This document shows, piece by piece, positions 42,796 through 57,833 of a DNA stretch of 64,000 nucleotides (the first letter of the stretch is position 1; every line of letters starts with the position of its first letter). The stretch spans positions 2,336,001 to 2,400,000 of the forward strand of contig OZ241867.1 in the NCBI GenBank assembly GCA_965203175.1, read 5' to 3'. Source of the stretch: Candidatus Latescibacterota bacterium. GTDB taxonomy: Bacteria > Latescibacterota > UBA2968 > UBA8231. A program made the translations under genes and the position numbers. The notes beneath the pieces were generated by a model, which saw nothing but the letters and a program-made list of their open reading frames with translations, was not told where the DNA came from and did not search any database.

Positions 42796-43358
42796 GGGAC
42801 GCACGCGTGAAAGTAATAAGGCCGCATCTTATTGATCTCTGCATTTCTAATGGAATGGTGCCTCATTCTTGCTTCTACCCAGACCGTATTGCTTTAGATA
42901 TGCCCTCAATAGTTATTATGACTTAGACGATTTTAAGGCGACGAACGCGTCCTAAAATGGCGTCCGTGTCTCTTGACGCAGAATGATAAGTGGCGTAGGT
43001 TGTTATTTGTGTTGTTTGTTTAATGGACTCTATAGCCAAACAGGATATCTCATAGTGATACTTGAAGATCAAATAGAAATTCTGCGGAGAAATTTACCTG
43101 AAATTAAGAGGCAAAAATTTTGCTTACCATTAATGGGCGGAATCATTGATACGGAAAAGGTATATGAATTTATATCACTTATACATCCTGCCAGAGACAT
43201 TTCTACGATGATCTATAGAGCCGATCCGTCGGAGAAAAAACTTACTCCAGACTTGCGTAATTGGTCCTTACGATCCAGGGATACATTTGGCGACATAAAA
43301 ACTATTCAATTGAAATCCTTTTTAAACATGATAGTTCATTCATTTTATATATATAGGG

Positions 43359-44518
43359 GGCGTTGTTGCATGAAAGCTGTGTTCGGGTCTTGAAATGAGT
43401 CAGGCTCTTCGGTTAGATTGGTTCGTGGTTTCCAGCAAGAAACACGTTCCTTTCTTCCCAAAGAGCCTGTGATGAGCAAAGTATCTGGCAGTTCGCCCTC
43501 GGTCAAGTCGCAACCGGTGTATCGGGTTAAGAATTGGTCGTCGTATAATCGGGCGTTGGTGGCTCGTGGTAGCCTGACGGTGTGGCTGGACGATGGTCTG
43601 TGGAAGCAATGGTATGCTCAGGGGCCATCGCAACGGGGTGCTCAGTTTGTCTATTCGGATCCAGCGATTGAATGGATGTTGACGATGCGGGTGTTGCTTG
43701 GGTTGCCGTTGCGCCAGACGCAGGGGTTTATCCAATCGCTGTTGGACTTGATGGGGTTGGCCTTGGCCGTGCCGGACTACTCGACCTTGTCGCGTCGCCA
43801 AGGGGCCTTGGCGGTGGAGTTGCCGAAAAAGCAGCCCGATAGCCCGGCTAGCCCGATGCACTTGGTAGTGGATTCGACGGGTTTGAAAGTCTATGGCGAG
43901 GGCGAGAGGAAAGTCCGTCAACACGGCTGGACCAAACGGCGCACGTGGCGCAAACTGCATGTGGGGGTCAACGAGGCCACCGGCGAGGTGGTCGCGCAGA
44001 CGTTGACGTCCCATCGGATCGATGATGCCTCGCAGGTGGCCCCTCTGTTGACCCAAGTCGACGAGGCGGTGGAGGCGGTAGGCGGCGATGGGGCCTATGA
44101 CAAACAGAAGGTGTTCGACGCCTTGGCCACGCGGAGTGATCCCTCGATTCGGCCGATCATCGCACTGCGCAAAGACGCTACAATCCATCAGCATGGTAAT
44201 TGTAAGGTCCCCCCGTTGGCGCGCGATGAAATCCTGCGGGCCATACGACGAAAGGGACGCAAGGAGTGGAAACAGGCCAGTGGCTATCATCGACGCTCGT
44301 TGGCCGAAACGCAAATCTATCGCTATAAGCACCTCATCGGCGACAAGCTGAAGGCGCGTAGCTGGATCAACCAACAGGTCGAAAGTCGCCTCGGCTGTGC
44401 CCTCCTCAATCGAATGATCCATGTGGGCAAACCCCAGTCGTATCGAGTAGAAAAAATCAACTGAACAAAAAACAACATTCGACAATGATGCCCCAGATAT
44501 GATTCATGCAACAACGCC
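43359..44518 (+). mobile_element. IS5 family (IS903-like) insertion sequence, 1160 bp
   Basis: Terminal IRs GGCGTTGTTGCATGAA / TTCATGCAACAACGCC; 9-bp TSD TATATAGGG at 43350-43358 and 44519-44527. Confidence 0.93.
43418..44464 (+). CDS. IS5 family DDE transposase
   Basis: NW..YN.AL..RGSLTVW, PDYSTLSRR, VDSTGLK, GDGAYD and YHRRSLAET motifs; start may be ATG 43472. Confidence 0.93.
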   Translation: MVRGFQQETRSFLPKEPVMSKVSGSSPSVKSQPVYRVKNWSSYNRALVARGSLTVWLDDGLWKQWYAQGPSQRGAQFVYSDPAIEWMLTMRVLLGLPLRQTQGFIQSLLDLMGLALAVPDYSTLSRRQGALAVELPKKQPDSPASPMHLVVDSTGLKVYGEGERKVRQHGWTKRRTWRKLHVGVNEATGEVVAQTLTSHRIDDASQVAPLLTQVDEAVEAVGGDGAYDKQKVFDALATRSDPSIRPIIALRKDATIHQHGNCKVPPLARDEILRAIRRKGRKEWKQASGYHRRSLAETQIYRYKHLIGDKLKARSWINQQVESRLGCALLNRMIHVGKPQSYRVEKIN

Positions 44519-45089
44519 TATATAGGGAAAACGATGTTATAGATGTTTCTGATGATTCTGGAAAAAGACGCATAGTTTCATACGATTTGTTTACAAGTAA
44601 CATTGAACGACTTATTCTTAATCCCGATCAAATGCTCTTGGTGACTTGCGGTTTTTCCGAAAATGAGATTATTAACAGGCAAAAGGATATTATTTCAGGA
44701 AAGACAAATTCATCGGGATTTATTACTGCTATTCCTGATGTTGTTCAATATAATTTTCTTAATCTATTCCGAGACAACAAGTTTCCCCAATTAAAAAATC
44801 ATATATGGAATAAATTTTTTTCTTCACAATCAAAACCTTTAGTTGATAGACAAACAGTAGAAGATCAGCCATTTTCCATGTCATTTAAAAAATCAATTAT
44901 TTGGAAAATAGGATGGAGAAAAGGAGATGTCTTTTCGGAATCATGGGTAAATATCCTAGACTTAATCCAAGATATTTACAATTATTATTCTGGCTCAAAA
45001 AAAACATCCCACACATAATTATATTATCCCGAGAATAGAAAGCGGGCCGCTGGCTCCTTGCAAAGCAATCCACTATCAAGAAAATCGTT

Positions 45090-45812
45090 ATGACTGATAA
45101 ACACTGCTCTAATGCCTTCGATTCTGACTTCAATGGGATCAAAGGGTTGACGTGGTTACCCTGGGTCGGGCGACGTTTCTCGAAACGTCCTCAGGGTGTC
45201 CGTCTCCTCATCGTAGGGGAGTCGTGTTACGACTGGCCCGAAGAAGGCGGGGGCAAAGATGCTCTCCAAAAGCCCAAATTTACGCGGCGTATGGTGTCCG
45301 AACACGCGATCACTAGGAAACGACGGAGCCCTACCTTTGCCAATCTCGCACTTCTACTCCTCGGAACAGGCCAGTATGAGCGAGAACGGTTCTGGAGAGA
45401 CGTAGCATTCTACAATTTGGTTCAACGGCCCATGTACGATCGTTGGGAGCGTCCAAATGGGGAAGATTTTGTTTCGGGGTGGAGCACATTTACGGATGTT
45501 ATTCGTATTCTAAAGCCGAGTCATGCTCTTTTCATCGGGGTTTCAGCGTTCAACTTCTTCAGCTACTCGATGAACGGACAGAACGCTGATTTCACGGAGG
45601 TTCAGTGGGCTGAGCAAGTCGGTCGAACCTACGGACGCAAGGCTTCCATCTCGACTGGATCAGAGGTGGTAGCTTTGATTGGTGTGCAACACACCGGCAA
45701 GTTTTTTTCTTGGTACCGTTGGAGGGATTACCTCGGAAGGCATCACAGGGACCTAACCGCCTTTATTGATGCTGAAGGCTATACAAGAGAGAGGCTGGCA
45801 TGGACTTATTGA
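45090..45812 (+). CDS. Hypothetical protein, possibly uracil-DNA glycosylase-like fold
   Basis: WLPWVG...LLIVGESCY...AFYNLVQ...L.P..ALFIG...QH pattern. Confidence 0.5.
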   Translation: MTDKHCSNAFDSDFNGIKGLTWLPWVGRRFSKRPQGVRLLIVGESCYDWPEEGGGKDALQKPKFTRRMVSEHAITRKRRSPTFANLALLLLGTGQYERERFWRDVAFYNLVQRPMYDRWERPNGEDFVSGWSTFTDVIRILKPSHALFIGVSAFNFFSYSMNGQNADFTEVQWAEQVGRTYGRKASISTGSEVVALIGVQHTGKFFSWYRWRDYLGRHHRDLTAFIDAEGYTRERLAWTY

Positions 45813-45820
45813 GGAGGCAA

Positions 45821-46075
45821 ATGAATATGCCTATCAAGCGGGAAGAACTGGACAGGCGGGAGGTCGATTTCTCGGACGTGGCCTCTGGACGACGGCTGCC
45901 GCCGGTGCATCCCGGCGAGATTCTGCGCGACGAATTTCTGACGCCCATGGAAATCAGCGTGTACCGACTTGCCCAAGCGATCAAGGTTTCGCGTCCGCGA
46001 CTGAACGATATTGTGCTTGGACGCCGGGGGATCACGACCGATACTGCGCTGCGCCTTCGTAGTGGTACATTTTGA
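45821..46075 (+). pseudogene. higA: HigA-type antitoxin, 5' part (truncated)
   Basis: PVHPGEILRDEFL.P..IS...LA....VS..RLNDI..G.RGIT.DTALRL, then a stop inside the junction motif. Confidence 0.85.
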
Positions 46076-46209
46076 AAATAATTCCGTGGCCTAAAAAATT
46101 AAGCCCAGACTCTCTGCAGACTGTACCTCCTGCCGTTTTTCTGGTCTTGAAACAGACCCTATGTGCCGTAGCCGTGTGTCGCCCTCGGTAAATTTCCTCT
46201 TGATGTTAC

Positions 46210-46224
46210 TACGGCAATGCCGTA
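46210..46224. promoter_or_regulatory. Palindromic operator upstream of the TA module
   Basis: TACGGCA-A-TGCCGTA perfect inverted repeat, 10 nt before the toxin ATG. Confidence 0.6.
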
Positions 46225-46233
46225 ATTAAGATC

Positions 46234-46581
46234 ATGCACACGGTCATCGAAACACCGACTTTCATCAGCAAATGCCGTCGCTACCAGATAAGCGACAGCG
46301 ACCGGGAGGCTATCATCGACTTTGTCGCCAATAATCCCGATGCCGGCGACGTAATCAAAGGATCAGGCGGTGCTCGCAAGCTCCGGTTCGCCGCGCCGGG
46401 AAGAGGAAAGAGCGGTGGATACCGAGTGGTGACTTTTTACAGTGGCCAAGACATTCCTGTGTTTTTGCTGTCAATCTTCGCTAAAGGCGATAAAACAAAC
46501 CTGACCGACTCGGAAGTTAGTGTTTTGCGGACTGTGTTGCGCACACTGGCAGACGAATACCAACGGAGGACCCAACCATGA
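46234..46581 (+). CDS. RelE/HigB-family toxin
   Basis: NPDAGDVI.GSGG.RKLR....GRGKSGGYRVV...FLL.IFAK motif. Confidence 0.9.
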   Translation: MHTVIETPTFISKCRRYQISDSDREAIIDFVANNPDAGDVIKGSGGARKLRFAAPGRGKSGGYRVVTFYSGQDIPVFLLSIFAKGDKTNLTDSEVSVLRTVLRTLADEYQRRTQP

Positions 46582-46871
46582 CCAAGGCTGGAGAGGAACT
46601 TATCAAGGCCGCAACGGAGGCTCTGGAAATCACGCACGGCCAAGCAGACCCAGAAAGCTACCGCGTCCACCTCCCCGACGAGATCAACGCCCGCTTGATC
46701 CGCTCGCAACTGAACATGACTCAGGACGTATTTGCCCAGACCTTTGGTATCGACATCCGCACCCTTCAGGAGTGGGAACAAGGCCGGCGGATTCCCAGTG
46801 GTCCGGCGCAAGCACTTTTGAAAATCATCTACCGGGAGCCAGAGGCTGCTAAGAGGGCGGTAGTGAGGTAG
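46578..46871 (+). CDS. XRE-HTH antitoxin
   Basis: IRSQLNMTQ..FA..FGI...TLQEWEQGRR.P.GPA..LL; ATGA overlap with the toxin. Confidence 0.9.
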   Translation: MTKAGEELIKAATEALEITHGQADPESYRVHLPDEINARLIRSQLNMTQDVFAQTFGIDIRTLQEWEQGRRIPSGPAQALLKIIYREPEAAKRAVVR

Positions 46872-46882
46872 TGGTGTACTTT

Positions 46883-47153
46883 ACGCCCATGGAAATCAGC
46901 GTGTACCGACTTGCCCAAGCGATCAAGGTTTCGCGTCCGCGACTGAACGATATTGTGCTCGGACGCCGGCGGTATCACGACCGATACTGCGCTACGCCTT
47001 GGGCGCTACTTCGGCATGACGCCTGAGTTCTGGATCAATCTTCAGACCCGCTACGATCTCGATGTCGCCGAGCGCACGACGCGTCGTCAAATCGAGCGAG
47101 AGGTAGAGACGCATGCTGCTCTGGACGGGGAATTAGGCGGTAAACGGCAGTAA
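46883..47153 (+). pseudogene. higA: HigA-type antitoxin, 3' part (frameshifted, end replaced by the cassette IR)
   Basis: TALRLGRYFGMTPEFWINLQTRYDL; lacks the N-terminus. Confidence 0.8.
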
Positions 47154-47193
47154 GGAAATTACCATCACTGGACACACATCAATATATTATCAT

Positions 47194-47308
47194 TGCCCTT
47201 ACGCATGAGGGGAGACTGTCTCCGGGTCTCCCGCTCGAATACAATAGCCTGTCCTCGGACAGGTAAATAGACGGGACTATCCGCAGAATCCCTTATGCGT
47301 AAGTGGCA
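47194..47308 (+). ncRNA. Candidate rod-shaped structured RNA
   Basis: Nested stems CTTACGCATGAGGG/CCCTTATGCGTAAG, CGGGT/ATCCG, TCCCG/CGGGA and CCTGTCC/GGACAGG; G-U pairs favour the plus strand. Confidence 0.35.
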
Positions 47309-47370
47309 GGGCCCGGTCAGTCGCCGGAATAAACAAAAACCCACATCTACTAATCAGCACAGGATTAATT

Positions 47371-47667
47371 TTGATCGAGGCCATTGTCGGAGCAGTTATA
47401 GGAGCTATTGTCACCGTTATACTTACGAGAACTCCTGTTCCTAAACTTCGACCTCTTACCTGTAAAGTACTTAGAAGGCATAAATATAAACGTAGCGAGA
47501 GCGGAGCATTGGGAGAGTGTATAAGGTGTGGTAGATATGCATGGATGGACTTATTAATTAGCAAAAAACCAAAAAAGAAAAAGCGCCTATCTACTCGGCT
47601 TCTTAGGCTGTTTGCCGGATTGATTATCTTGATCTTTTTGATCTGGCTTTCTCTGTTTGCTCGGTAA
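47371..47667 (+). CDS. Small basic membrane protein with putative zinc ribbon
   Basis: Hydrophobic N- and C-terminal helices; C...HKY...CIRCG; TTG start after AGGA. Confidence 0.45.
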   Translation: MIEAIVGAVIGAIVTVILTRTPVPKLRPLTCKVLRRHKYKRSESGALGECIRCGRYAWMDLLISKKPKKKKRLSTRLLRLFAGLIILIFLIWLSLFAR

Positions 47668-47717
47668 CGGCGTTTCAAGACACCGCTTAAGCGCATTATT
47701 AAATACTTTACGTTTTC

Positions 47718-47753
47718 TTGACATGGTTATCCCTTATAATATGATAAGGGATA
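47718..47753 (+). promoter_or_regulatory. Sigma70 promoter overlapped by a palindromic operator
   Basis: TTGACA-N16-TATGAT; perfect IR TATCCCTTAT-N6-ATAAGGGATA (47728-47753). Confidence 0.6.
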
Positions 47754-47904
47754 GCGGGTACGCGCGTATCCGCCATCTTGAGGGGGTGCCTCTCCAGCGG
47801 GAACCCAACCGCTGCGAAGCCATGTGATCGACGGGGCGAAGGGGCGGGCCGCCAAAACCCGTCTCTTGTATTTTTATAAACATTCTCGACAAGGAGACAC
47901 AACT

Positions 47905-48225
47905 ATGAGTTTATCTCGTCACGATTTTAAGGTGAGGCAAGTTGCACAGTACTACCAAAACCAAGGTTATCAAGTTCAAGCGGATATTAACGATGGGCCT
48001 TGGAATAAACCAGATTTAATACATGGGTGTTACCCTGATGTGATAGCAACGCTAATAGGCCCATCTGCAAAACATAGAGGCGAATTTATAGCAATCGAGA
48101 CAGTCATAGTTGAAGTCGAGACTGAACTATCAAAAGACGAAGATCATTCTAAAAGACAACAAGAAGCGTTTTCAAGATATGCACAAGAGAATGACAATGT
48201 ATATTTCAAACTTGTAATAGCATAG
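47905..48225 (+). CDS. Small PD-(D/E)xK-like nuclease-fold protein
   Basis: AAGGAG RBS; H...V..VA..Y...GY.V.AD...PDVIA...IVEVET pattern. Confidence 0.55.
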   Translation: MSLSRHDFKVRQVAQYYQNQGYQVQADINDGPWNKPDLIHGCYPDVIATLIGPSAKHRGEFIAIETVIVEVETELSKDEDHSKRQQEAFSRYAQENDNVYFKLVIA

Positions 48226-48406
48226 CGGCAGGAGGTACTGTTACCCTCACCTTTCGTCAAGTTTTGTGCCACGTTAAACGCTTGACTCTAAATCAGGCGT
48301 CCCTGAACATGACGGCAACCGCTGTCGCTAGGGTTGACAGGTGCAATACCTCCCCCGCTATGCCTTACTGCCGCTTTCCGCCTAATTCCCTCTGGACGCG
48401 ACGGCC

Positions 48407-48499
48407 CTAGATTGATGGGCGATATTCACGCTCGACCAATCCCACCTTTCGCTTGGCTGCCCAAACGGTGTTGTAGAGCAACAGCGCGATTGTCGTCGG
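48407..48499 (-). pseudogene. Displaced 3' end of folD (PTTIALLLYNTVWAAKRKVGLVEREYRPSI*)
   Basis: 48437-48499 vs folD 53682-53744: 21 codons, 6 mismatches, 5 synonymous. Confidence 0.85.
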
Positions 48500-48587
48500 T
48501 AGTGGGTTACTTTGAACTTGTGGGTATAAAAAGGCTCCCTTGGCACTGTTCTTGCCGAGGGGGCTTGCTGTAGGGAAAACGGAATAC

Positions 48588-49832
48588 TTAGCTCACAGCC
48601 CTGATCTTGTGCTTGACGCTCTTCGGCCCATCCGAAAATGAGATCATCATCCCGCCTTTATACTCGATCCACCAACCGGGGCGAGAGGATTGTGGCTGCT
48701 CTGACAAACACGCAAGGCTCATTATGACTTTGTAAGGGTCGTCACTCAGCCGCTCTAACAGCTTTTCGTATAGGTATAGCGCACACTCGGTCACGATTAG
48801 GTGTGCATAGCGGATTCCACAAATGGTGATGGCATTCAGGATATGGGGGGCTGGCTTCATCGCCGCCCTGAAAGCCTGTTCACCTTCGATGGCGGCTAGG
48901 CGTCCGACGTCAATAGAATGCGCTCCCTCAAAGTTCGCTACGGTCCGAATCATCTCCTTTAGTGAAATCCCTTTCCCATCGAACATCACGACCTGCTGGC
49001 CTAACCAATCGTCGCAGCTTAAACCGGAGCCGGCACCTGCGTGAAATAACTGGTCGGCGCTCACCGGCCAAGCTGTTTCTTTAGACGGTACTCCCGTCCA
49101 GTCCGCCGCACCCGGTAGCGGCCACTCTATGAATATCTTTACCTCATGCGGCCCCGCACTGAACTGATTGGTTTCTTGGGGTTCCAGCGTATCGTCGTCT
49201 AATTTCGTCCATTCTACGACCATATCAGAGCAACCGAAGCCGACCTCAATCTCTCTCCGTCTGTCTTGGGGAATCTTACGCAACCGATCAAACTGCAACC
49301 CGACTGATTTTAGGATGCTATCATCGAGCAACCGGGTCTCGCGCCTGTCGTGGTCTCCTATGACGGTTTTTCGGAGGAACACCGAACAGAGCCGTGCTAA
49401 TGATGCGAATAAGTCTAGCACATGCCCCCGCTGGTTTCCATCGCACGCGCCGGATAACTGACTATTCAGCCCGTCGATTCCTAGTCGTAGGTCGGCCATT
49501 GCGCCCTTGATCCGAGCCATCTTATCCTGCTGCATGCCGCCAATCAAACTGCCCCTCACCGGCATTAATCTTACTCCACGTTCCTTGGGACTCTTTTGAA
49601 GAGCGGCAACAATCTTCTGGAGTTGAGTTACAGCAAGCTCTCTGCTCTCAAAAGCAAAATAAAAATTCTTTGACGCCCCGCTCGAATCATATACGATTCG
49701 GCCCTGATCGTTAAGTACCGGGACAGCCTGTATTTTTAAGATGAAAGTCTCATCGTTAGGGCTTTGAAACGGTACGATGTTTTTCATCCCATAAACAAGG
49801 TCATCGGGCTGTAGTATATCGCTGTCCTCCAT
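48588..49832 (-). CDS. Hypothetical protein (possibly two fused parts)
   Basis: 414-aa ORF with AAGGAG RBS; internal GGAG+ATG at MPVRGS; no recognised family. Confidence 0.6.
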   Translation of the reverse strand: MEDSDILQPDDLVYGMKNIVPFQSPNDETFILKIQAVPVLNDQGRIVYDSSGASKNFYFAFESRELAVTQLQKIVAALQKSPKERGVRLMPVRGSLIGGMQQDKMARIKGAMADLRLGIDGLNSQLSGACDGNQRGHVLDLFASLARLCSVFLRKTVIGDHDRRETRLLDDSILKSVGLQFDRLRKIPQDRRREIEVGFGCSDMVVEWTKLDDDTLEPQETNQFSAGPHEVKIFIEWPLPGAADWTGVPSKETAWPVSADQLFHAGAGSGLSCDDWLGQQVVMFDGKGISLKEMIRTVANFEGAHSIDVGRLAAIEGEQAFRAAMKPAPHILNAITICGIRYAHLIVTECALYLYEKLLERLSDDPYKVIMSLACLSEQPQSSRPGWWIEYKGGMMISFSDGPKSVKHKIRAVS

Positions 49833-50047
49833 CGTCTGGCTCCTTTACGGTAGGATTATTTGGGGGGACTTCCCCATTCGGTCACCCTGTGCGTCTCGGT
49901 AATGGGCTAATTTGAAAAATGAAGTAGTGGTTCACTTAAAAAATAATCGGCGATGGCTTTGGTCTGGCCAGACGCGCTTCCCGAGATCAACAGTAGTCTG
50001 CCCAACCGCAAGTTCTGCGCCTAACTTTGGCGGTTTAGGGCGAGATT

Positions 50048-50413
50048 TCAAACTGAATCACTATCCTCTGAAGGTTGTTGGCTCGTCGTCAGTGAATCGG
50101 CAAGGGTGGCTATGATGGATTTCTCGTCCCGTTTCGACAGCCTCCCAATTTTGCGTACCACCGATTTATTATCGAGCGAGAAAAGCTTGAGGCGGATTTT
50201 GCAAGGCACATTGAGGCCGGCTTCCTGCCAATCCTCAATGACTACATCGCTTGGCCATTTGTTTTTCGTGCTCGTAATCATGGCGAAGATCGTTTGCTTG
50301 TGAACCTTATTGAAGCTCACTGAAGAGACAACTAGCGCTGGGCGGCGTTTCTTTTCATTGAGGTCTGCGAAGGGGAAAGGAACGACGACTACGTCGAATG
50401 GATCAAAGGTCAC
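50048..50413 (-). CDS. PemK/MazF family toxin
   Basis: GTG start overlapping the upstream stop; DVVVVPFPF.D....KRRPALVVS...AMITS...AGL...IR.K motif. Confidence 0.9.
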   Translation of the reverse strand: MTFDPFDVVVVPFPFADLNEKKRRPALVVSSVSFNKVHKQTIFAMITSTKNKWPSDVVIEDWQEAGLNVPCKIRLKLFSLDNKSVVRKIGRLSKRDEKSIIATLADSLTTSQQPSEDSDSV

Positions 50414-53400
50414 GCCAAGCCTCCTCATCTTCTGGGGAAGTCCATTCTTCACTCATCGTCTGATAAAGATCACGCAGATAATCATCCTGAACTAGTGGCC
50501 AGCCGCCGTGGGCGTCTATTGTTTTGTCGATTTTGGCCATGATGCGCGGCGTCTCGGCCAAGGCCGCGCAGAGGCGGGAGTAGTGGTCAATGTCATCGTA
50601 TGAGAGGGTGCGATTTTTGCGGTCTTTGAGCCACTTCTCTGCCGGCTGGTAGCCACCAATGGTGAATTCCCACGTGTCTAGCGCAACGCCGTCAAAATAC
50701 TGCTCGCCGTTGATCCACACCCGCTTTTGCGGCGGTGCATAGCGCACTTTTTCTACGCAATTGTTGCCTTTGATCGGAAAAGCAGGGACCTCGTCATCAT
50801 CGGCTTCCATTAAGTGCAGGGCTGTCAGCCGCTTCCCAAGCATGGCGAGCGACTCAAACAGCGCACCGCAGTTGGTCACGGGAATGCGGGGAAAATCTGA
50901 CTTGAGGAAATCAGCGTAGCGGCGGCGGTATTCTGGGCTGTGGAGGACGGCGTAGAGATAGTGGAGTATATCTTCCGGGCCGAAGGTAGTTGTGAGGTCA
51001 CCGGTGCCTTCGGGGATGAAATCGAGAGTGGTAGCGGAGGAGAAGACTTTGACGAAATCGGAGTTCAGGTTGGGGACACGCCTAGATTCTTCTGTTGAAT
51101 AGATATAAAGCGGGAAGAGACAGTTCCCACCACGTCGAAACAAATTGAAATCCGAGGAAAATTTTGAAGCAAAAACGATCTCCCAAGTGTCGGAACCAAT
51201 AACTTGACCAGCACGGCCGACGCACAACCCTAAGTTCGGGCCTGCCAACATGTGACGCATGACGCGCTCACGCCTGTGGACAGCGACATTGCGGTCGAAT
51301 ATTGTGGCCCGGACATCGAACGGTCGGTAGAGGACTGGTTTGATTCGCTCGCGCCAAGAGCCACCCGCTAGTTCCTGTTTCGCTTGGTCATATTGCCATT
51401 GATTCTGCGAACACAGACGCCATTGGGCACGTGCCTCATCTTCCGATGAGGTGGCGAGCAAACGCTCGACTTTAGCCGCCGCCTCTTCCGGTGTCCATGA
51501 GATGGCGAATTGATCGTGTGTAGTTACGATACCCGGTGCTGGATCGCCATTCGGCGAAAAAATTGAGGGGATAGACCACGCTGCTTCGTACTCTTCGAGC
51601 AATTCTTCGTTGCGCGGAATGAACAGATATAACGGCGGCTTAGGTGAAAGCTCTGTCCAATCGGTAGTTTTAACGCTGTTGGCGGCGAGCCAGCCATATT
51701 TTCCGCGATTCGGCCCCGACTCGCGCTCGCCCCACAAGTCAGCGTGAAACACTTTGGCTGGGCCGTTATCGGCATTTTTGCATTTGACGAACAGACCTAT
51801 GGCGACCCCCTGCTGAATGTCGAACACATTTTCGTCGTTGCCGCCATCAGGAGTGCGCTCCTGCTTCTTGGCGTTGCCGTGCAGGTCGAGCAAATAGATC
51901 TCGTCAAAGGTTTCCATCAAGCTGCGGCGCATCCCACGAAAGGTCGGGTTGTCCAAATAGCCATGGTCGGTCACGAAGCCGAGCACACCCTCACCAGTGC
52001 GCTCAATGCGCCATTGGGCAAAGCGGATGAATTTCACGTAATCGTTGCTGAGCCATTTTGCTTGCGCCGGTCTTTCTAATTCGGGAAAACCCTGCTTGTA
52101 GCTACCGATCAACTCCGCAATCCACGCGTTCTTGTTGGCGGAGTGCCCGGAATAGGGTGGATTGCCCATCACGACCATTACCGGCTTTTCTTGCTTGACC
52201 GCATAAGCACTGGCCGCTTCGCGCACAATTTCGGGAGCAAAAAGCGGGGAACTATGCCCTTCGTCTGGTCCTTCTAAGGCATTGGTGAGGAAGACATTGA
52301 GCCGCTCACCGGCGGGCATGGCAAAGCCGCGGTCCGTGCCGCCGATTTCGAGCGCGAGTTTCAGGTGGCAGATCGAGTAAGGGGCCATCAGCAACTCAAA
52401 TCCGAACAGGCGCGGCAAAAGGTGCTTATGTACGTAGCCCGGCCAAGCACCGCCTAATCCCTTCGCTTCAATGGTCTCGCGGATGGTGGCGACTACTTCG
52501 CGCAGAAAGGTTCCTGTGCCCGCTGCTGGGTCGAGAATCGTCACTCTCGGACGGGGAGAGCCGCCGTTTTCGGATGCGACCGTCGCCGTGTCGGCTAGCC
52601 CATCGGCTAAGCCAAACTGATCGCGCAACAAGTGGTCCACACTCTGCACGATGTAAGACACCACGGGTTCGGGAGTATAGTACACACCTCGCTTCTCGCG
52701 TAGGTGCGGATCATAAGCCGCTAAGAAATCCTCATAGAAATGCACTACCGGGTCTTCTTGCCGGGTCTTCTTGCCGAACTCGGACAGGATAGATGCCATG
52801 TCCGCCCGATCTAGTAGGTACGCCAGATCATCAACTATCCAAGCGATCCGCTCGTCCATCCCTGGGCCAGCAATCCTCCCGAAGACATCTCGCAAAAAGG
52901 GCGTGGTTTCGGCAAACGCGGCCGACTGGCGGGTAAAAGGTTTATTGTCGTGTTCGTGTCGGCACCGTGCCGCAAACAGCCCATAAGCAGCCGTCTGCGC
53001 CTGCAAATCGGCGAAGTCTGCTTCCGACAAGCCGGCGATGAGCCCCTCGCGGTAACCGGTGAGCATATTGTGGAGGGGGCCGGCCTCAGTTTCTTGAGCC
53101 AAGATGCGCTCAATGCTGTCACGGAGTAGCCGCGCCTTGGCCGCCATGCGCTCGGCCAGTTCACGCGGCTGGCCAATGGACGGCGGGTCGGCGTCAAAGA
53201 ACGCGGTGAACAGTTCGGCGACTTGGGGAGCGCCGGTTTGGTCAATAGTGATACGATCTCGATTGCCGGTGTGTGCAAGACGAGCCTTCAGGTGTAACTC
53301 CCCTTCTACATACCAGCGAAATTCGAGATAGTCGGTGAGAATCAGATTCGGCAAACTGTCGAGGTAACGCGTGAGTTGGTCATCGCGTTCGACTCGGTTC

Positions 53401-53654
53401 AGATCTACGTCGATATCCTTGCATTCGACATGCCCGATGGGTACCCCTCCCCGCTCGACGATGAAATCGGGCGCACCGCACTTGACGCGCTTAGGCTCAT
53501 TGAGGGCACGAACTCGTTTGCCACCCAACCCTTGGATCAGATTCTCAAGGGCCGAGCGGTAGCTGTGCTCGGTCGCCTGCTTGGTAGCAAAGGTAGTCTT
53601 CAGGCTATTGTAATACACCCGAAGAGGACTACTAAGGGCCTGTTTTGTCGTCAT
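50403..53654 (-). CDS. Single-chain restriction-modification enzyme (N6-MTase with Type ISP-like specificity domain, no helicase) with antitoxin-like C-terminal tail
   Basis: N-terminal PDF...VECK nuclease motif; GVYYTP, LDPAAGTG, GNPPY, ENVFDIQQGV, YRPFD and IGGYQ..KWLKDR motifs. Confidence 0.88.
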   Translation of the reverse strand: MTTKQALSSPLRVYYNSLKTTFATKQATEHSYRSALENLIQGLGGKRVRALNEPKRVKCGAPDFIVERGGVPIGHVECKDIDVDLNRVERDDQLTRYLDSLPNLILTDYLEFRWYVEGELHLKARLAHTGNRDRITIDQTGAPQVAELFTAFFDADPPSIGQPRELAERMAAKARLLRDSIERILAQETEAGPLHNMLTGYREGLIAGLSEADFADLQAQTAAYGLFAARCRHEHDNKPFTRQSAAFAETTPFLRDVFGRIAGPGMDERIAWIVDDLAYLLDRADMASILSEFGKKTRQEDPVVHFYEDFLAAYDPHLREKRGVYYTPEPVVSYIVQSVDHLLRDQFGLADGLADTATVASENGGSPRPRVTILDPAAGTGTFLREVVATIRETIEAKGLGGAWPGYVHKHLLPRLFGFELLMAPYSICHLKLALEIGGTDRGFAMPAGERLNVFLTNALEGPDEGHSSPLFAPEIVREAASAYAVKQEKPVMVVMGNPPYSGHSANKNAWIAELIGSYKQGFPELERPAQAKWLSNDYVKFIRFAQWRIERTGEGVLGFVTDHGYLDNPTFRGMRRSLMETFDEIYLLDLHGNAKKQERTPDGGNDENVFDIQQGVAIGLFVKCKNADNGPAKVFHADLWGERESGPNRGKYGWLAANSVKTTDWTELSPKPPLYLFIPRNEELLEEYEAAWSIPSIFSPNGDPAPGIVTTHDQFAISWTPEEAAAKVERLLATSSEDEARAQWRLCSQNQWQYDQAKQELAGGSWRERIKPVLYRPFDVRATIFDRNVAVHRRERVMRHMLAGPNLGLCVGRAGQVIGSDTWEIVFASKFSSDFNLFRRGGNCLFPLYIYSTEESRRVPNLNSDFVKVFSSATTLDFIPEGTGDLTTTFGPEDILHYLYAVLHSPEYRRRYADFLKSDFPRIPVTNCGALFESLAMLGKRLTALHLMEADDDEVPAFPIKGNNCVEKVRYAPPQKRVWINGEQYFDGVALDTWEFTIGGYQPAEKWLKDRKNRTLSYDDIDHYSRLCAALAETPRIMAKIDKTIDAHGGWPLVQDDYLRDLYQTMSEEWTSPEDEEAWRDL

Positions 53655-53675
53655 ATCAAGTCCCCCTTTACAATT

Positions 53676-54560
53676 CTACGCCAATCCCACTTTCCGCTTG
53701 GCCGCCCACACGGTGTTGTAGAGCAACAGCGCGATCGTCATCGGCCCGACCCCGTTGGGCACAGGGGTGATCGCACGGACCTTTGGGCGCACCTGTTTGT
53801 AGTCCACGTCGCCGACGAGCCGCCAGCCGCGTTCGCGCGAGGGGTCGTCAACTTGGTTGATGCCCACGTCGATTACCACGGCGTCTTCTTTGACCATATC
53901 CGCCGTGATGCCACGGGGAAATCCAGCCGCCACCACTAGGATGTCCGCTTGGCGCGTAAAATATCCGAGGTCGCGGGTGCCGGTGTGGCACAGAGTTACC
54001 GTGGCATTGGCCCCGGTCGCCTTGTGCCCCAGCAAGATGGCTACGGGCCGTCCCACGAGCGTGCTGCGGCCGACTACGACCACGTGCTGGCCGTCCACCT
54101 CGATTCCGCTGCGACTGAGAATCTGCAAGACCCCGTGCGGCGTACAGGGCCAAAAGCATTCCTCCTGCCGGACGAGGCGGCCCAAATTGACCGGGTGCAA
54201 GCCATCGACATCCTTGTTTGGGTCAATGGCGTTGAGGACTTGTTGCTCGTCTTGGCCTGGCAGTGGTAGCTGTATCAAAATGCCGTGAATTGCGTCGTCG
54301 GCGTTGAGTCGATCGACGGTGGCTAGCACGTCTTCGGTCGTGGCGTTGGCCGGCAGATCTATTTGCTCGGAGTGAATGCCGAGGGATTCGCAGGCGCGAC
54401 CCTTGGCGCGCACGTAGGACTGTGAGGCTGGGTCGTCCCCAACCAGCACGACTGCTAAGCCCGGAACTAGACTGTGCTCCTGCTTCAGGCGCGCGATGTC
54501 CACCAGCAACTCTTCTTGCACTTGGGCCGCAATCGTCCGGCCATCGAGTCGCTCTCCCAT
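53676..54560 (-). CDS. folD: Bifunctional methylenetetrahydrofolate dehydrogenase/cyclohydrolase
   Basis: GDDPAS..Y, QLPLP, KDVDG, PCTP, GRS..VG.P, IDVGIN and PVP.GVGPMT motifs. Confidence 0.96.
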   Translation of the reverse strand: MGERLDGRTIAAQVQEELLVDIARLKQEHSLVPGLAVVLVGDDPASQSYVRAKGRACESLGIHSEQIDLPANATTEDVLATVDRLNADDAIHGILIQLPLPGQDEQQVLNAIDPNKDVDGLHPVNLGRLVRQEECFWPCTPHGVLQILSRSGIEVDGQHVVVVGRSTLVGRPVAILLGHKATGANATVTLCHTGTRDLGYFTRQADILVVAAGFPRGITADMVKEDAVVIDVGINQVDDPSRERGWRLVGDVDYKQVRPKVRAITPVPNGVGPMTIALLLYNTVWAAKRKVGLA

Positions 54561-55921
54561 CACGCGCCTTTCGGTTGCAGGACGCTTTTCTGAACGACCC
54601 GTTGTAAGGCTTCGGGGACCTGTACTGCGCCGTCCGGTTGCTGATAGTTGTCCAAAATGGCGATCAGCAATCGGCCCATCGCGCAGCCTGTGTCGTTGAC
54701 TAGGTGGCAAAATCCCCGACCGCTCGCGCCCTTGTAGCGGATGTTCAAGCGCCGGGCCTGATAGTCCGTGGCGTTGGTGTCGGTCATTACCTCCATGAAC
54801 TCGCCCGTCCCGGACATCCACACTTCCACGTCCCGCTGCCGATGGCTAGCCAGATAGCCCGCGTCTCCGTGGCACTTATCGACGACCCGGTAGGGCAGGG
54901 CTAACTCTTGCAAAAGCCATTCGTTGATTTGGCCGAATTCTTCGTACAGGGCTTCGGACTGATCGGGCAGGCACACGGCGTTCATTTCGATTTTGTCGAA
55001 CTGGTGCATGCGCTTGATGCCCTTGACGTCTTGGCCCCAAGACCCGGCTTCCGAGCGAAAGCAAGCCGTATAGGCAAAGAGCTTGACCGGCAGTTCGGCC
55101 GAGTCCAAGGTCTGGTCCATGAAGTAGCTGAAATTGGTCGGCTCGGACGACCCGACTAGGAAGAGCTCGGCCCCTTCTTCTACGTTATCGGTCTTGATGG
55201 CATAGACTTGGTCGCGGCCCTCGGGAAAGTGCGAGGTGCCGTACAGCGAGCGTTCCCGCACTAGGAGCGGCGGTACGAACATCTCGTACCCGCGCGCTAA
55301 AAGCTCGTCGATGAGGAGCTGGCTCAGGGCGTATTGCATCCGCGCGACATCGCCGCGCAGATAGGCAAAGCGCGAGCCGGAGACTTGGCCGCCCTGTAAG
55401 GTGTTGATGCCGCCTAATTTGACGCCGAGGTCTGCGTGATGGAGGGGCTCAAAGGCGTCGTCTGGGGCGTGCAGAGGCCGCGTGGGCATGTATTGGGCAC
55501 TGGTGTTCCCGCGGCCCAGCTTGTCCGCGGCTAGGTAGCCTTGCCCCGGAATCCAGGCGTTCTCCTCGACGTTGTCTTCCTCGCTAGCTCCTGTGGGCAT
55601 ATCGGGATGTGGCCAGTTGGGGAACCAATCCATGATTCCCTGCCACTCGGCGACAACGGTTCCCAACTCGTGCTCCAGCACTCGCCCGCGCTCGCGCAAC
55701 TCCCGCCCTTTTTCCCGCGCTGCATCCGGGTCGTTGCGACCGAGTTGGGCTAGTTGCTTTTTCTCGCTGTTGAGCGCGTCGATATTCCGTTGCAGCTTTT
55801 GCCGCGCTGCGTCGAGGGCCAACCAGCGATCCACATTGGCTTTGGCCGGGTCAACCTTGCGCACCCGTATCGCCTCGCGCATGGCGTCGGGATCGGTGCG
55901 CACGGCCTTTGGGTCGATCAT
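54560..55921 (-). CDS. serS: Serine--tRNA ligase
   Basis: N-terminal coiled coil; GSRF, CFRSEAG...G..RMHQFDK, TDYQARRL and NYQ..DG motifs. Confidence 0.92.
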   Translation of the reverse strand: MIDPKAVRTDPDAMREAIRVRKVDPAKANVDRWLALDAARQKLQRNIDALNSEKKQLAQLGRNDPDAAREKGRELRERGRVLEHELGTVVAEWQGIMDWFPNWPHPDMPTGASEEDNVEENAWIPGQGYLAADKLGRGNTSAQYMPTRPLHAPDDAFEPLHHADLGVKLGGINTLQGGQVSGSRFAYLRGDVARMQYALSQLLIDELLARGYEMFVPPLLVRERSLYGTSHFPEGRDQVYAIKTDNVEEGAELFLVGSSEPTNFSYFMDQTLDSAELPVKLFAYTACFRSEAGSWGQDVKGIKRMHQFDKIEMNAVCLPDQSEALYEEFGQINEWLLQELALPYRVVDKCHGDAGYLASHRQRDVEVWMSGTGEFMEVMTDTNATDYQARRLNIRYKGASGRGFCHLVNDTGCAMGRLLIAILDNYQQPDGAVQVPEALQRVVQKSVLQPKGA

Positions 55922-56003
55922 GATGCTCGCTCTCAGTTTTGGGTCAAAAATGGATTAAAAATAAGAACGCCGCTGGCGCGAATCGTGGCAATATCGCGGG
56001 ATT

Positions 56004-56927
56004 TTAGCTCTTCGGAGCGATCTTTTGCAGCCACTCGTCCCGCCCGCCGTAGGCGGCAAACACGGCTTCGAGCAAGAGCCGCACGGCTTGGCCAAAGTAG
56101 CGGCCCCGCCGCCAGGCCACGCCGATTTCGCGCTCAAAGGCCACGCCGCGCACTTCTACTATTTTGAGCGCGCCGCTGGCCAGCGATTCGCGGATGGTCA
56201 ATCGCGGCAAAAACGAGATGCCCACCCCGGCCTCCACTAACTTGCGCATGGCCTCTGGGCTGCGCAGCTCCATTACCGCCCCCGGTGTTAAGCCAGCTTC
56301 GGCGAACTTCTCGTCAACCACCTGGCGCGAGACCGAGTCGGCGTGAAAGAGGATCAGAGGCTCTTCCACTACTTCGGCGAGGGCGACGGACTCGCACCGG
56401 GCAAAGCGATGCGCTGGCCCGACGACCAAGGGCATGTCGTCGCGGTAAATCGGCACGGCGTCGATTTTGGGATGGGTATAGGGCAGGTGGACCAGCGCGA
56501 ATTCAGAGCGCTGCATCAGCAGGTCGTCGATGAGATAGCGCGAGGGGGCCACTTGGGTCTTGAGCGCGACGCCCGGATAGCGGCGCATGTACTCTTTGAG
56601 AATTTCCGGCAGGAGATAGATGACAGCCGCGTCCACCGCCCCAAACTGAAAGCCTCCCCCCGGCGCTAGGTCGCTTCGCTGAAGCCGCTCGCTGGCCTCC
56701 TCCAGCAAGTCCTCGACTTGGACGGCATAGCTCAGCAGCAGGCGGCCCTCGGTCGTCAGGGCCACGTGCCGCTTGTCGCGGTTGAAGAGCTGGACTCCCA
56801 TGCTTTTCTCCAACTCCGAAACCGCGCTGGAAACCGTCGGCTGGGTCACGTTCATCTGGCGCGCCGCTTGGGTAAAGCCGCCCGTGCGCGCCACGGCGAG
56901 GAAGTAGCGCAGGTGTTGCAGATTCAT
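56004..56927 (-). CDS. LysR family transcriptional regulator
   Basis: N-terminal LRYF..VA..G.FT.AA...TQP.VS..LE...LF.R helix-turn-helix. Confidence 0.93.
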   Translation of the reverse strand: MNLQHLRYFLAVARTGGFTQAARQMNVTQPTVSSAVSELEKSMGVQLFNRDKRHVALTTEGRLLLSYAVQVEDLLEEASERLQRSDLAPGGGFQFGAVDAAVIYLLPEILKEYMRRYPGVALKTQVAPSRYLIDDLLMQRSEFALVHLPYTHPKIDAVPIYRDDMPLVVGPAHRFARCESVALAEVVEEPLILFHADSVSRQVVDEKFAEAGLTPGAVMELRSPEAMRKLVEAGVGISFLPRLTIRESLASGALKIVEVRGVAFEREIGVAWRRGRYFGQAVRLLLEAVFAAYGGRDEWLQKIAPKS

Positions 56928-56951
56928 GGGCGCAGCGCGCCGTGTGCAGTG

Positions 56952-57833
56952 TTAGGTGGGTTGCGCGGCTTTTGCCGATCCGAAGGTTGAGTGGCGCAAT
57001 ACGGTTTGGGTGGCGTAGATGGAGCCGCCGACTTTGGCGCCGGGCATCGGCATGCTCACGGGCACGTCGGCGACGCGGATGTGCCGGCTTGGCTCGCCGC
57101 GCACAAAGCTGCGGCAATAGCCGTCCCAGTCGGGCGCTGGCACCAAAGGCCAGGAGTCGCCAGCGCAATACTGCAAGAGCAGGAGTCGGCGCGGATTCGG
57201 CGAGGTGTTGGGTAGGGAGCCGTGCAGGGCGCGGACGTGGTGGAGGGAGATGCCGCCGGCTGTTAGCTCGATCTTTTCGGCTGCGGAGTCGTCGAAATCC
57301 GCTGTGGTCACCGCGCCGGCGAAATGGCCGTCGAGGTGGTGGTTGTAGATCGGTCCCTTGTGCGACCCGGGGATGACGAGCAAGCAGCCGTTGGTCTCAT
57401 TCATGTCGTCGATGCACACGCCCACGGCGAGGAGGTCGTCATTGGTATGCGGATAAAAAGCCCAGTCCTGATGCCACTCCACTGGGCTGCCGAACTCGCC
57501 GGATTTCATGTTGAGCTTGTCGCCGTTGGTGCGGATGCGCGGGCCGATTAACTGGCCGACGATGTCCAGAATCCGCTCGTGGTGCAGCGTGTTGCGGTAA
57601 ATCTCGTGCTGGGCGACCGGGCTTTTGAGCCGCCGTAGCTTGGGGTTGTCGGGCGCGTGTCCCGGTTCCAAGTCGAATACAGAATCGCTTTCTGTCGCGG
57701 CGCGGGACTGATCGACGAATTCGTCGGTGGTCTGCCGCAGTGCCTCGACCTCTCCGGCGTCTAGTACTCCCTCGACGCCGAGGTATCCTTTTTCGTGGTA
57801 GCTGGTGATTTGTTCTTGAGTCAGCATGGACAT
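56952..57833 (-). CDS. Phytanoyl-CoA dioxygenase (PhyH) family protein
   Basis: WHQD, NGCL.VIPGSH and HGS.PN....RR motifs. Confidence 0.92.
   Translation of the reverse strand: MSMLTQEQITSYHEKGYLGVEGVLDAGEVEALRQTTDEFVDQSRAATESDSVFDLEPGHAPDNPKLRRLKSPVAQHEIYRNTLHHERILDIVGQLIGPRIRTNGDKLNMKSGEFGSPVEWHQDWAFYPHTNDDLLAVGVCIDDMNETNGCLLVIPGSHKGPIYNHHLDGHFAGAVTTADFDDSAAEKIELTAGGISLHHVRALHGSLPNTSPNPRRLLLLQYCAGDSWPLVPAPDWDGYCRSFVRGEPSRHIRVADVPVSMPMPGAKVGGSIYATQTVLRHSTFGSAKAAQPT

What the first reader, a model, noticed from the sequence alone, without database searches (positions are those of the whole stretch)
46059..50064. Unexplained ~18-bp motif brackets each cargo unit: possible integron-like or shufflon-like cassette system
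Seen: six gap-free copies, GTAGTGGTACATTTTGAA (46059), GTAGTGGTGTACTTT (46868), GTAGTGGGTTACTTTGAA (48499), GTAATGGGCTAATTTGAA (49899), GTAGTGGTTCACTTAAAA (49924) and, on the minus strand, ATAGTGATTCAGTTTGAA (50064-50047). Copies 1 and 2 are direct repeats enclosing the RelE/HTH module. Copies 3 and 4 enclose the 414-aa hypothetical gene. Copies 5 and 6 are inverted about 140 bp apart. Copies 1, 2 and 3 lie at the breakpoints of the duplicated higA and folD segments. The motif supplies the stop codons of truncated higA, the HTH antitoxin and PemK. I noticed no full copy in the backbone. It does not match attC (RYYYAAC/GTTRRRY), dif or the IS ends in this window. Inference: a recombination or end signal for a trans-acting enzyme that inserts defence/TA cassettes; no recombinase is encoded here.
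Basis: partly seen in the sequence, partly recalled or inferred. Interest (0 to 1): 0.85.

Follow-up and report, generated by a model that had tools for sequence, protein, structure and literature searches.

The report
IS1-type transposon ends, not integron sites
The repeated 18-22-base motif is the terminal inverted repeat of an IS1-family transposon lineage, so the "cassettes" it brackets are transposase-less passengers and leftover ends in an insertion hot spot, which is ordinary mobile-DNA biology rather than a new recombination system.

Summary
It is the terminal inverted repeat (consensus GGTAGTG-N4-A-N-TTTGAA) of an IS1-family transposon lineage. In 7 relatives' genomes and 2 alphaproteobacterial plasmids, inverted pairs of the motif bound 2.5-5.8-kb elements. 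Each holds an IS1-type DDE transposase at one end plus passenger genes, and 7 of 9 have perfect 8-10-bp target duplications. The RelE/HTH module is a transposase-less derivative. It sits at a different locus in three relatives, starting at the same base, with a full right end and a duplicated AAAAATTG. The window's genome has only a truncated cognate transposase, so its copies are relics: one cargo unit, one 141-bp inverted pair and solo ends. Copy 2 is mostly the antitoxin's own 3' end. The integron/shufflon reading is not supported; "end signal for a trans-acting enzyme" is. Still unexplained are the long target duplications (117 bp of higA, 64-95 bp of folD, 80 bp elsewhere). They resemble the published "insertion with long target duplication" of restriction-modification genes.

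The parts
46059..46080 (+). Copy 1: left terminal inverted repeat of the RelE/HTH cargo unit. The usual G before it is a C here.
   Evidence: 30.2 bits. Homology to the same unit at another locus in G021, G022 and G002 starts exactly at 46059. It matches 13 of 14 conserved columns of the transposase-element ends.
46234..46871 (+). Cargo: RelE-family toxin (46234-46581) and HTH/XRE antitoxin (46578-46871).
   Evidence: Pfam RelE PF06296 at 40.4 bits and HTH_3 at 26.4 bits. The unit is 95-98% identical in G021, G022 and G002.
46868..46882 (+). Copy 2: 15 bases, made of the antitoxin's own 3' end (GTAGTGG) plus the start of an inner repeat copy. It is cut and joined to higA.
   Evidence: In L009-L011 this spot continues as a full motif, a GC hairpin and an inverted motif. 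GTAGTGG is also present in contexts without a repeat, L012 and L013.
45941..46057 (+). First copy of the 117-bp higA segment. The second copy is 46883-47000.
   Evidence: higA is single and uninterrupted in G023, G013, G002 and G010. A contig of run X1 joins 46025 to 46969, which is the empty form.
46883..47000 (+). Second copy of the higA segment. It carries one extra G compared with the orthologues, a frameshift.
47128..48390 (.). A different transposase-less element with 28-bp inverted ends (GGGAATTAGG...) and an 8-bp target duplication TCTGGACG (47120-47127 and 48391-48398). It is inserted in the 3' end of higA.
   Evidence: Contigs of X1 and X2 skip it (47119 to 48394; 47118 to 48390). 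X2 holds it with a different right flank.
48391..48499 (.). Native junction fragment: the last bases of higA plus the 3' end of folD (duplicate of 53681-53744).
   Evidence: Aligns to the uninterrupted higA-folD junction of G010 and G023.
48499..48520 (+). Copy 3: a solo left-type end followed by a GC hairpin. No partner end was found.
   Evidence: 27.2 bits and 14 of 14 conserved columns. The best reverse-strand score at 48540-48640 is below 0.
48588..49832 (-). 414-aa gene of unknown function between copies 3 and 4.
   Evidence: No hit in Pfam, NCBIfam or PADLOC. It is unique in the genome. A 3530-base contig of run X1 covers 48563-50200 with 100 differing letters.
49899..49945 (+). Copies 4 (49899-49920) and 5 (49924-49945): two left-type ends in tandem, starts 25 bp apart.
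   Evidence: 28.8 and 28.2 bits. The same 25-bp tandem occurs in L028 (1035/1060) and L030 (809/834).
50043..50064 (-). Copy 6: a right-type end. With copy 5 it forms a 141-bp inverted pair. Its TGA is the PemK stop codon.
   Evidence: 29.7 bits. It is conserved next to PemK in G002, G013, G022 and G023. No target duplication is present.
50048..53654 (-). PemK/MazF-type toxin (50048-50452) and a Type IIG restriction-modification enzyme (50403-53654). This block is inserted at the 3' end of folD.
   Evidence: Pfam PemK_toxin at 57 bits and Type_ISP_C at 265 bits. PADLOC REase_MTase_IIG at 912 bits.
53676..54821 (-). folD (backbone). 53681-53744 is the second copy of the duplicated 3' end.
   Evidence: Pfam THF_DHG_CYH and THF_DHG_CYH_C.

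Best explanation
The motif is the terminal inverted repeat of a lineage of IS1-family transposable elements. The conserved core is GGTAGTG, four variable bases, A, one base, then TTTGAA.

Full elements are 2.5-5.8 kb. They carry a single-ORF IS1-type DDE transposase of about 280 aa at the right end, with its stop codon in or next to the right repeat, and unrelated passenger genes to its left. The transposase binds the two repeats and inserts the element with an 8-9-bp staggered cut, which leaves a target duplication.

Units that keep the repeats but have lost the transposase can be moved in trans. The RelE/HTH module is such a unit. In the window's genome the cognate transposase survives only as a truncated remnant. 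The window copies are therefore relics piled up in an insertion hot spot between a glycogen-phosphorylase-like gene and folD: one cargo unit with a damaged right end (copies 1-2), a solo end (3), a tandem left end (4-5) and a right end (6).

Shown: identity of the motif with the element ends, the transposase family, the target duplications, the presence/absence polymorphism, and the lack of an intact transposase here.

Inferred: trans-mobilisation, and the order of events in the window.

Inferred with low confidence: the 117-bp higA duplication arose when a circle holding the truncated unit plus a piece of higA recombined into an intact higA.
For: 1. Non-random and lineage-specific. Matrix hits of 20 bits or more: 32 in the genome against 1 and 2 in two Markov simulations. 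The pattern with up to 1 mismatch gives 14 in G000 and up to 28 in genus mates, against 0-2 for the reversed control. The 16 genomes of other genera give 0-5.

2. Link to a transposase. A motif of 20 bits or more lies within 90 bp of the transposase's C-terminus at 7 of 15 places with a homologue in the genus. With longer flanks, 7 of 8 places show both ends.

3. Family assignment. Pfam DDE_Tnp_IS1 scores 33 bits against a cut-off of 24.1. NCBIfam transpos_IS1 is the best hit at 66 bits. Plasmid genes annotated 'IS1 family transposase' are 46-48% identical over the full length.

4. Conservation across phyla. The matrix was trained only on G000 copies. It still finds inverted pairs bounding those plasmid transposases in Mesorhizobium (33 and 29 bits) and Hoeflea (27 and 22 bits).

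5. Target duplications. Perfect 8-10-bp duplications occur in 7 of 9 transposase-bearing elements and in 3 of 5 transposase-less units. IS1 makes 8- or 9-bp duplications (PMC12903888, passage read).

6. Paired ends. The left and right ends of one element share the same variable bases. Window copies match 11-14 of the 14 conserved columns.

7. Mobility of the RelE/HTH unit. It has the same left boundary at a second locus that is empty in G000, and AAAAATTG(G) is duplicated around it in G022 (perfect 9 bp) and, by eye, in G002. higA is uninterrupted in relatives and in a contig of run X1.

8. No intact cognate transposase in G000.
Against: - The NCBIfam IS1 score (66 bits) is below that model's curated cut-off of 100, and the Pfam match covers only about 40 residues.
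- The transposase is one ORF, not the insA/insB' frameshift pair of IS1. The elements are 3-7 times longer than IS1.
- 8 of 15 transposase places have no motif within 90 bp of the gene's end. One element (L025) and one broken one (L057) lack a perfect target duplication.
- None of the 5 short inverted pairs tested in G000, including copies 5-6, has a target duplication. Their interiors are unique, so they are not a classic multi-copy MITE family.
- In a sample of 20 motif loci from relatives, every locus held only one hit of 20 bits or more within 6 kb on either side. Most copies are therefore solo ends.
- In the window the RelE unit has no 8-9-bp duplication and no right end. The 117-bp duplication is not what a DDE insertion makes.
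- Trans-mobilisation was not tested.
Confidence: 0.85

Rival explanations
1. The motif is a site for a site-specific recombinase (integron attC-like or shufflon sfx-like) that inserts, excises or inverts cassettes.
For: Copies bracket gene units, and no enzyme is encoded nearby. The RelE unit lies in opposite orientations relative to the same flank in G021 versus G022 and G002, which an inversion between inverted copies would give.
Against: Units bounded by the motif carry 8-10-bp target duplications, which site-specific recombination does not make. The gene found inside motif-bounded elements is a DDE transposase. No integrase or recombinase family turned up among the ORFs scanned at 40-55 kb of the window. 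Opposite orientation is also what two independent insertions, or an intramolecular transposition, would give.
Confidence: 0.03
2. The motif is a regulatory or structural signal (promoter -35, operator or terminator module) that happens to be repeated, not a mobility signal.
For: TTGAAA in copy 1 forms one promoter-like site facing RelE. Copy 3 and the inner copy of the RelE unit are followed by GC hairpins. Copies sit at gene 3' ends and supply stop codons.
Against: Promoter-like and terminator-like sites in 45700-50300 are no more frequent than in shuffles: 7 against 4.4 +/- 1.9, and 6 against 4.6 +/- 1.9. No Rfam family matches. A regulatory role does not explain inverted pairs with target duplications around a transposase. 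A secondary role is not excluded, because IS ends often carry promoters.
Confidence: 0.04
3. Single ends of this transposon take part in an unusual one-ended or aberrant insertion route that produces long target duplications (64-117 bp). On this view the motif at the higA, folD and genome-1904-kb breakpoints is causal and not a bystander.
For: Three loci in G000 have a motif at or within 21 bp of a long direct duplication of the flank. These are 117 bp, 64 bp and 80 bp (at 1904046-1904125 and 1904416-1904495). Only 12 of 600 random positions show such a flank duplication. One orthologous locus in relatives has 82-bp and 20-bp duplications next to a solo end. In each case only one good end is present.
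Against: Two of the three G000 cases are the ones that prompted the finding. The independent yield is about 2 of about 23 loci, which is not significant. In G023 the folD duplication is 95 bp and its inner edge has no motif, so copy 3 came later. Long target duplications around restriction-modification genes are reported without any transposon (PMC2853133, passages read).
Confidence: 0.08

Closest known systems
IS1 family insertion sequences (IS1 of E. coli as type)
   Same: DDE transposase matching the IS1 models, terminal inverted repeats of 20-30 bp, and 8-9-bp target duplications (IS1 features from PMC12903888, passages read).
   Different: The transposase is a single ORF of about 280 aa, not insA/insB' with a frameshift. 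Elements are 2.5-5.8 kb with passenger genes, not 768 bp. From memory, and not checked, ISfinder lists single-ORF and passenger-carrying subgroups of IS1 (ISMhu11 group) and gives the family's ends as GGnnnTG, which the repeat fits. A full-text search for 'ISMhu11' found no paper.
Mobile insertion cassettes (MIC), transporter IS and solo IRs as defined by ISfinder/ISsaga
   Same: IS-type inverted repeats around passenger genes, either without a transposase (the RelE/HTH unit, the M48-peptidase unit L028) or with one (the 2.5-5.8-kb elements), plus isolated ends (PMC3129680, passages read).
   Different: The window's RelE unit has lost its right end and is flanked by a 117-bp duplication, not an 8-9-bp one.
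MITEs
   Same: Copies 5 and 6 form a 141-bp non-coding inverted pair. Similar pairs of 77-249 bp exist elsewhere in the genome.
   Different: No target duplications in 0 of 5 short pairs. Interiors are unique and not a repeated family.
Insertion with long target duplication (Furuta, Abe and Kobayashi 2010, PMC2853133)
   Same: A Type IIG restriction-modification gene with PemK is inserted at the 3' end of folD, flanked by a 64-95-bp direct repeat that is single in genomes lacking the insert. The paper's criterion is a repeat over 30 bp.
   Different: Remnants of transposon ends lie inside or beside the inserts here. The same pattern also surrounds a toxin-antitoxin unit (higA, 117 bp) and a 290-bp insert with a 69-aa ORF.
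Integron attC sites and shufflon sfx sites
   Same: Short repeated sites that separate gene units.
   Different: No integrase or Rci-type recombinase was seen among the ORFs scanned. Insertions make target duplications, and the associated enzyme is a DDE transposase.

Membership tests
IS1 family | DDE transposase of the IS1 type | tested here: met
   This holds for the elements that own the motif, not for the window itself. PF03400 scores 33 bits against a cut-off of 24.1. NF033558 is the best NCBIfam hit at 66 bits, below its cut-off of 100. Annotated IS1 family transposases on plasmids are 46-48% identical over the full length.
IS1 family | Terminal inverted repeats bound by the transposase | tested here: met
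   The 18 ends of 9 transposase-bearing elements share GGTAGTG-N4-A-N-TTTGAA, and the two ends of each element co-vary. Binding itself was not tested.
IS1 family | 8- or 9-bp target duplication (PMC12903888) | tested here: met
   Perfect 8-10-bp flanking repeats in 7 of 9 transposase-bearing elements. None in L025 and none at the exact boundary in L057.
IS1 family | insA and insB' joined by a -1 frameshift; size about 768 bp | tested here: not met
   Single ORFs of 260-284 aa in elements of 2.5-5.8 kb. This departs from IS1 proper. Whether it fits a named subgroup could not be checked.
Mobile insertion cassette | IS-type inverted repeats around passenger genes, no transposase, target duplication | tested here: met
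   RelE/HTH unit in G022 and G002: motif, RelE, HTH, motif, hairpin, inverted motif. AAAAATTG(G) is duplicated around it in G022 (perfect 9 bp) and, by eye, in G002. In the window the unit lacks its right end and the short duplication.
Mobile insertion cassette | Mobilised in trans by a cognate transposase | not testable with these tools
   Indirect support only. The same unit is at two loci, with empty sites in other genomes. Copy 1 is nearly identical to the left end of the intact G010 element.
MITE | Short non-coding element with terminal inverted repeats, target duplication, many similar copies | tested here: not met
   Inverted pairs of 77-249 bp exist. However, 0 of 5 have a target duplication and the interiors are unique.
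Integron cassette / attC | Neighbouring intI integrase and attI; cassettes inserted without target duplication | tested here: not met
   No integrase family among the ORFs scanned at 40-55 kb. Motif-bounded units have target duplications. The attC core sites were not scanned by me.
Shufflon | Rci-type recombinase and inverted sfx sites separating invertible 3' gene segments | tested here: not met
   No recombinase among the ORFs scanned. Only one inverted pair lies in the window. An orientation difference of the RelE unit between genomes is the sole hint.
Insertion with long target duplication | Insert under 20 kb flanked by a direct repeat over 30 bp that is single in the empty genome | tested here: met
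   folD: 95 bp in G023 and 64 bp in G000, single in G010. higA: 117 bp, single in relatives. Genome 1904 kb: 80 bp, with no empty-site genome examined.
Insertion with long target duplication | No other mobile element involved | tested here: inconclusive
   IS1-type ends lie at or near one edge of each insert.

The most novel reading that the evidence does not exclude
Single ends of this IS1-type transposon seed a second, non-canonical insertion route that leaves long target duplications of 60-120 bp. The insert would be a cassette cut at one true transposon end and at an arbitrary second point, entering a convergent gene junction, for example as a circle that carries a piece of the target. This would give a mechanism for the 'insertion with long target duplication' reported for restriction-modification genes and would extend it to toxin-antitoxin units.
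Probability: 0.1. Interest if true: 0.55.

Novelty: new member of a known kind. Interest (0 to 1): 0.3.

Why it matters
The result explains a striking repeat as ordinary mobile DNA. It also gives a usable annotation rule for this genus: GGTAGTG-N4-A-N-TTTGAA marks ends of IS1-type elements, their transposase-less cargo units and solo scars. It shows a toxin-antitoxin pair travelling as the passenger of such a unit. It shows that the same 22-bp end is kept between this genus and alphaproteobacterial plasmids. The long target duplications around the toxin-antitoxin and restriction-modification inserts are the only part that is not routine.

Tried and rejected
- Rfam at a permissive threshold on 42-55 kb: no match.
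- Promoter and terminator scans: no excess over shuffles.
- Long-range motif pairs in G000 (3649328/3653751, 3408670/3413710, 1362855/1368648) hold ordinary genes and no transposase, so they are unrelated solo copies.
- The two IS types nearby do not own the motif. The 1162-bp IS at 43359-44520 is IS5-like with different ends. The 1.2-kb IS present in 4 copies is a distant IS1 relative with ends starting GGTCGTA.
- A right partner for copy 3 was not found.
- Reading copies 3-6 or 1-6 as single elements: no target duplications.
- The 414-aa, 133-aa, 240-aa and 98-aa ORFs have no family in Pfam, NCBIfam or PADLOC.
- Contigs of the two runs that hold the locus (X22, X23) show no form with a cassette removed. 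Contigs drop rare variants, so this says nothing about excision.
- A first matrix script was not run. The matrix was then built from 8 G000 copies read by coordinate.
- The PNAS 1985 paper on variable IS1 target duplications is not held; I saw only its title in a reference list.
- ISfinder could not be queried.
- Supplementary files of papers were not consulted.

Full report
**Observation.** The six copies are at the stated coordinates and strands. The pattern GTAGTGGNNNANTTTGAA with up to two mismatches gives 6 window matches against 0.26 expected, and 0 of 100 shuffles reach 6. Copy 2 is missed because it stops after 15 bases.

I built a 22-column matrix from 8 copies of the window's genome, read by coordinate. 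It gives 32 genome hits of 20 bits or more, including the 8 training copies, against 1 and 2 in two first-order Markov simulations. At 18 bits the counts are 44 against 4 and 4. In the window the five full copies score 27-30 bits and the next best site scores 11.7.

The higA duplication is 45941-46057 and 46883-47000. The folD duplication is 48436-48499 and 53681-53744, at 91% identity.

**What the locus looked like before.** I compared 42000-57000 with 40 relatives and read the junctions. In G010, higA (+) and folD (-) are convergent and share the palindromic stop CTAG. In G014 the phosphorylase-like gene that ends at 42795 is joined almost directly to folD. The stretch 42.8-53.7 kb of the window is therefore an insertion hot spot.

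In the window, higA is interrupted twice and frameshifted. It is followed by a leftover piece of the native higA/folD junction (48391-48499). Next come the 414-aa gene, the PemK and Type IIG restriction-modification block, and the complete folD.

**What the motif is.** The RelE/HTH unit (46059-46882) is 95-98% identical in G021, G022 and G002. Homology starts at exactly 46059, but the locus is different, and that site is empty in the window's genome (genome 1056596-1056608). There the unit continues past the antitoxin as a full motif, a GC hairpin and an inverted motif. In G022 and G002 the whole unit is flanked by duplicated AAAAATTG(G) (by eye in both; perfect 9 bp confirmed for G022).

A genus-wide pattern search shows the motif is enriched in the genus: 14 in G000 and up to 28 elsewhere, against 0-2 for the reversed control. 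It is near background in the 16 genomes of other genera. That search also showed inverted pairs 2.5-2.9 kb apart with identical ends. One pair (G006, L025 1029-3712) encloses a 281-aa ORF whose stop codon lies in the right repeat. This ORF matches Pfam DDE_Tnp_IS1 at 33 bits against a cut-off of 24.1. It also matches NCBIfam transpos_IS1 at 66 bits, the best hit but below that model's cut-off of 100.

Searching the genus with this protein found homologues in 11 of 31 genomes at 15 places. At 7 of the 15 a motif of 20 bits or more lies within 90 bp of the gene's end. With longer flanks, 7 of 8 places show both ends.

Plasmid genes annotated 'IS1 family transposase' are 46-48% identical over the full length. 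The matrix was trained only on G000 copies, yet it finds inverted pairs around two of them: Mesorhizobium at 33 and 29 bits, and Hoeflea at 27 and 22 bits.

The 18 ends of these 9 elements give the consensus GGTAGTG-N4-A-N-TTTGAA. The two ends of each element share the same variable bases. The window copies match 11-14 of the 14 conserved columns, and copy 1 is nearly identical to the left end of the intact G010 element.

Perfect 8-10-bp flanking repeats are present in 7 of 9 transposase-bearing elements and 3 of 5 transposase-less units. IS1 is reported to make 8- or 9-bp duplications and to have imperfect 28-30-bp ends (PMC12903888, passages read).

Passenger genes are varied: metallopeptidases, an SNase-like nuclease with an SH3 protein, an SDH-type protease, many unknowns, and other IS elements nested inside. 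In ISfinder's vocabulary these are transporter IS, mobile insertion cassettes and solo IRs (PMC3129680, passages read).

**State in this genome.** The window's genome has only a truncated homologue of the transposase (residues 108-278), plus four copies of a distant IS1-like element with different ends. The copies here are most likely immobile relics.

**Reading the window copies.**
- Copy 1 is a true left end.
- Copy 2 is the antitoxin's own 3' end, which already reads GTAGTGG in contexts without a repeat (L012, L013), plus a few bases of an inner repeat, then a break.
- Copy 3 is a solo end with a hairpin and no partner. It lies inside the leftover folD fragment, and in G023 that fragment runs on for 95 bp without it.
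- Copies 4 and 5 are tandem left ends with starts 25 bp apart. This arrangement is also seen in L028 and L030.
- Copy 6 is a right end kept next to PemK in four relatives.
- Copies 5 and 6 form a 141-bp inverted pair but have no target duplication and a unique interior.

**What does not fit simple transposition.** The RelE unit in the window has no right end and is flanked by 117 bp of duplicated higA. The PemK/restriction-modification block is flanked by 64 bp (95 bp in G023) of duplicated folD. A third case in this genome is an 80-bp duplication around a 290-bp insert that ends with a right-type repeat plus 20 bases.

Random positions show such flank duplications in 12 of 600 trials. Two of my three cases are the ones that prompted the finding. 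An independent sample of 20 loci in relatives gave one orthologous locus with 82-bp and 20-bp duplications. The excess is therefore suggestive only.

Restriction-modification genes inserted with long target duplications have been described (PMC2853133, passages read), and the folD case fits that class. For higA, the left junction is a true transposon end and the right junction is arbitrary. This is what integration of a circle carrying the truncated unit plus a piece of higA into an intact higA would give. That is inference.

**Public runs.** Two runs hold the locus as assembled (X22, X23). Metagenome run X1 holds an uninterrupted higA (joint 46025 to 46969), a higA without the second element (47119 to 48394), and the RelE unit in the G021-type context. 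Run X2 holds the second element with another right flank. These are contigs and cannot show rare excision products.

**Verdict.** The motif is real and non-random, and it is explained. It is the end of an IS1-family transposon lineage, and the window holds its passengers and scars. The integron/shufflon idea is rejected. The idea of an end signal for an absent enzyme is right.

Noticed in passing
window 47128-48390 (target duplication at 47120-47127 and 48391-48398): A second, unrelated transposase-less element: 28-bp inverted ends GGGAATTAGG..., an 8-bp duplication TCTGGACG, and small ORFs of unknown function. Its ends are unique in the genome. Run X2 holds it in another context, and runs X1 and X2 hold the empty site.
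   Followed up: partly
window 49899/49924; L028 1035/1060; L030 809/834: Left-type ends occur as two tandem copies with starts exactly 25 bp apart in three independent elements. This could be a double transposase-binding site or a preferred insertion next to a resident end.
   Followed up: no
G000 genome 1904046-1904495: An 80-bp direct duplication (96% identical) of a convergent gene junction. It flanks a 290-bp insert that holds a 69-aa ORF and ends with a right-type repeat plus 20 bases. There is no left end.
   Followed up: partly
L078 5000-8194 (G012); also L068 and L073: Nested 20-bp and 82-bp duplications of a convergent gene junction lie around two inserts. One insert ends with a solo right-type repeat 18 bases from the duplication.
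   Followed up: partly
L009 versus L010/L011, around position 2000-2900: The RelE/HTH unit lies in opposite orientations next to the same flank in G021 versus G022 and G002. The whole composite insert there is flanked by a 13-14-bp duplication (CTATTTCTGCGTCG) that is single in G000.
   Followed up: partly
window 46880 joined back to 45809 in contigs of runs X23 and X1: Some contigs follow the end of the RelE/HTH unit with 38 other letters and then the start of higA. This is another arrangement of the same two modules. The 38 letters begin with an inverted half-repeat.
   Followed up: no
window 43359-44520: An IS5-type element (Pfam DDE_Tnp_1_5) present in 7 identical copies in the genome. Its ends differ from the motif.
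   Followed up: partly
G000 genome 3386000-3441000: A second cluster of motif copies (about a dozen hits of 14 bits or more). It also holds the only remnant of the cognate transposase (3391903-3392421) and is probably another insertion hot spot.
   Followed up: no
window 45800-47153: higA is a pseudogene here. It is split by the RelE unit, has one extra G in the second copy of the duplicated segment, and has the second element in its 3' end. In relatives higA and folD overlap at their stop codons (CTAG).
   Followed up: yes
L060 (Hoeflea plasmid) and L061 (Mesorhizobium plasmid): Both plasmid elements carry a 370-395-aa helix-turn-helix/XRE-type gene next to the IS1-type transposase. It may be a conserved accessory gene of this lineage.
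   Followed up: no
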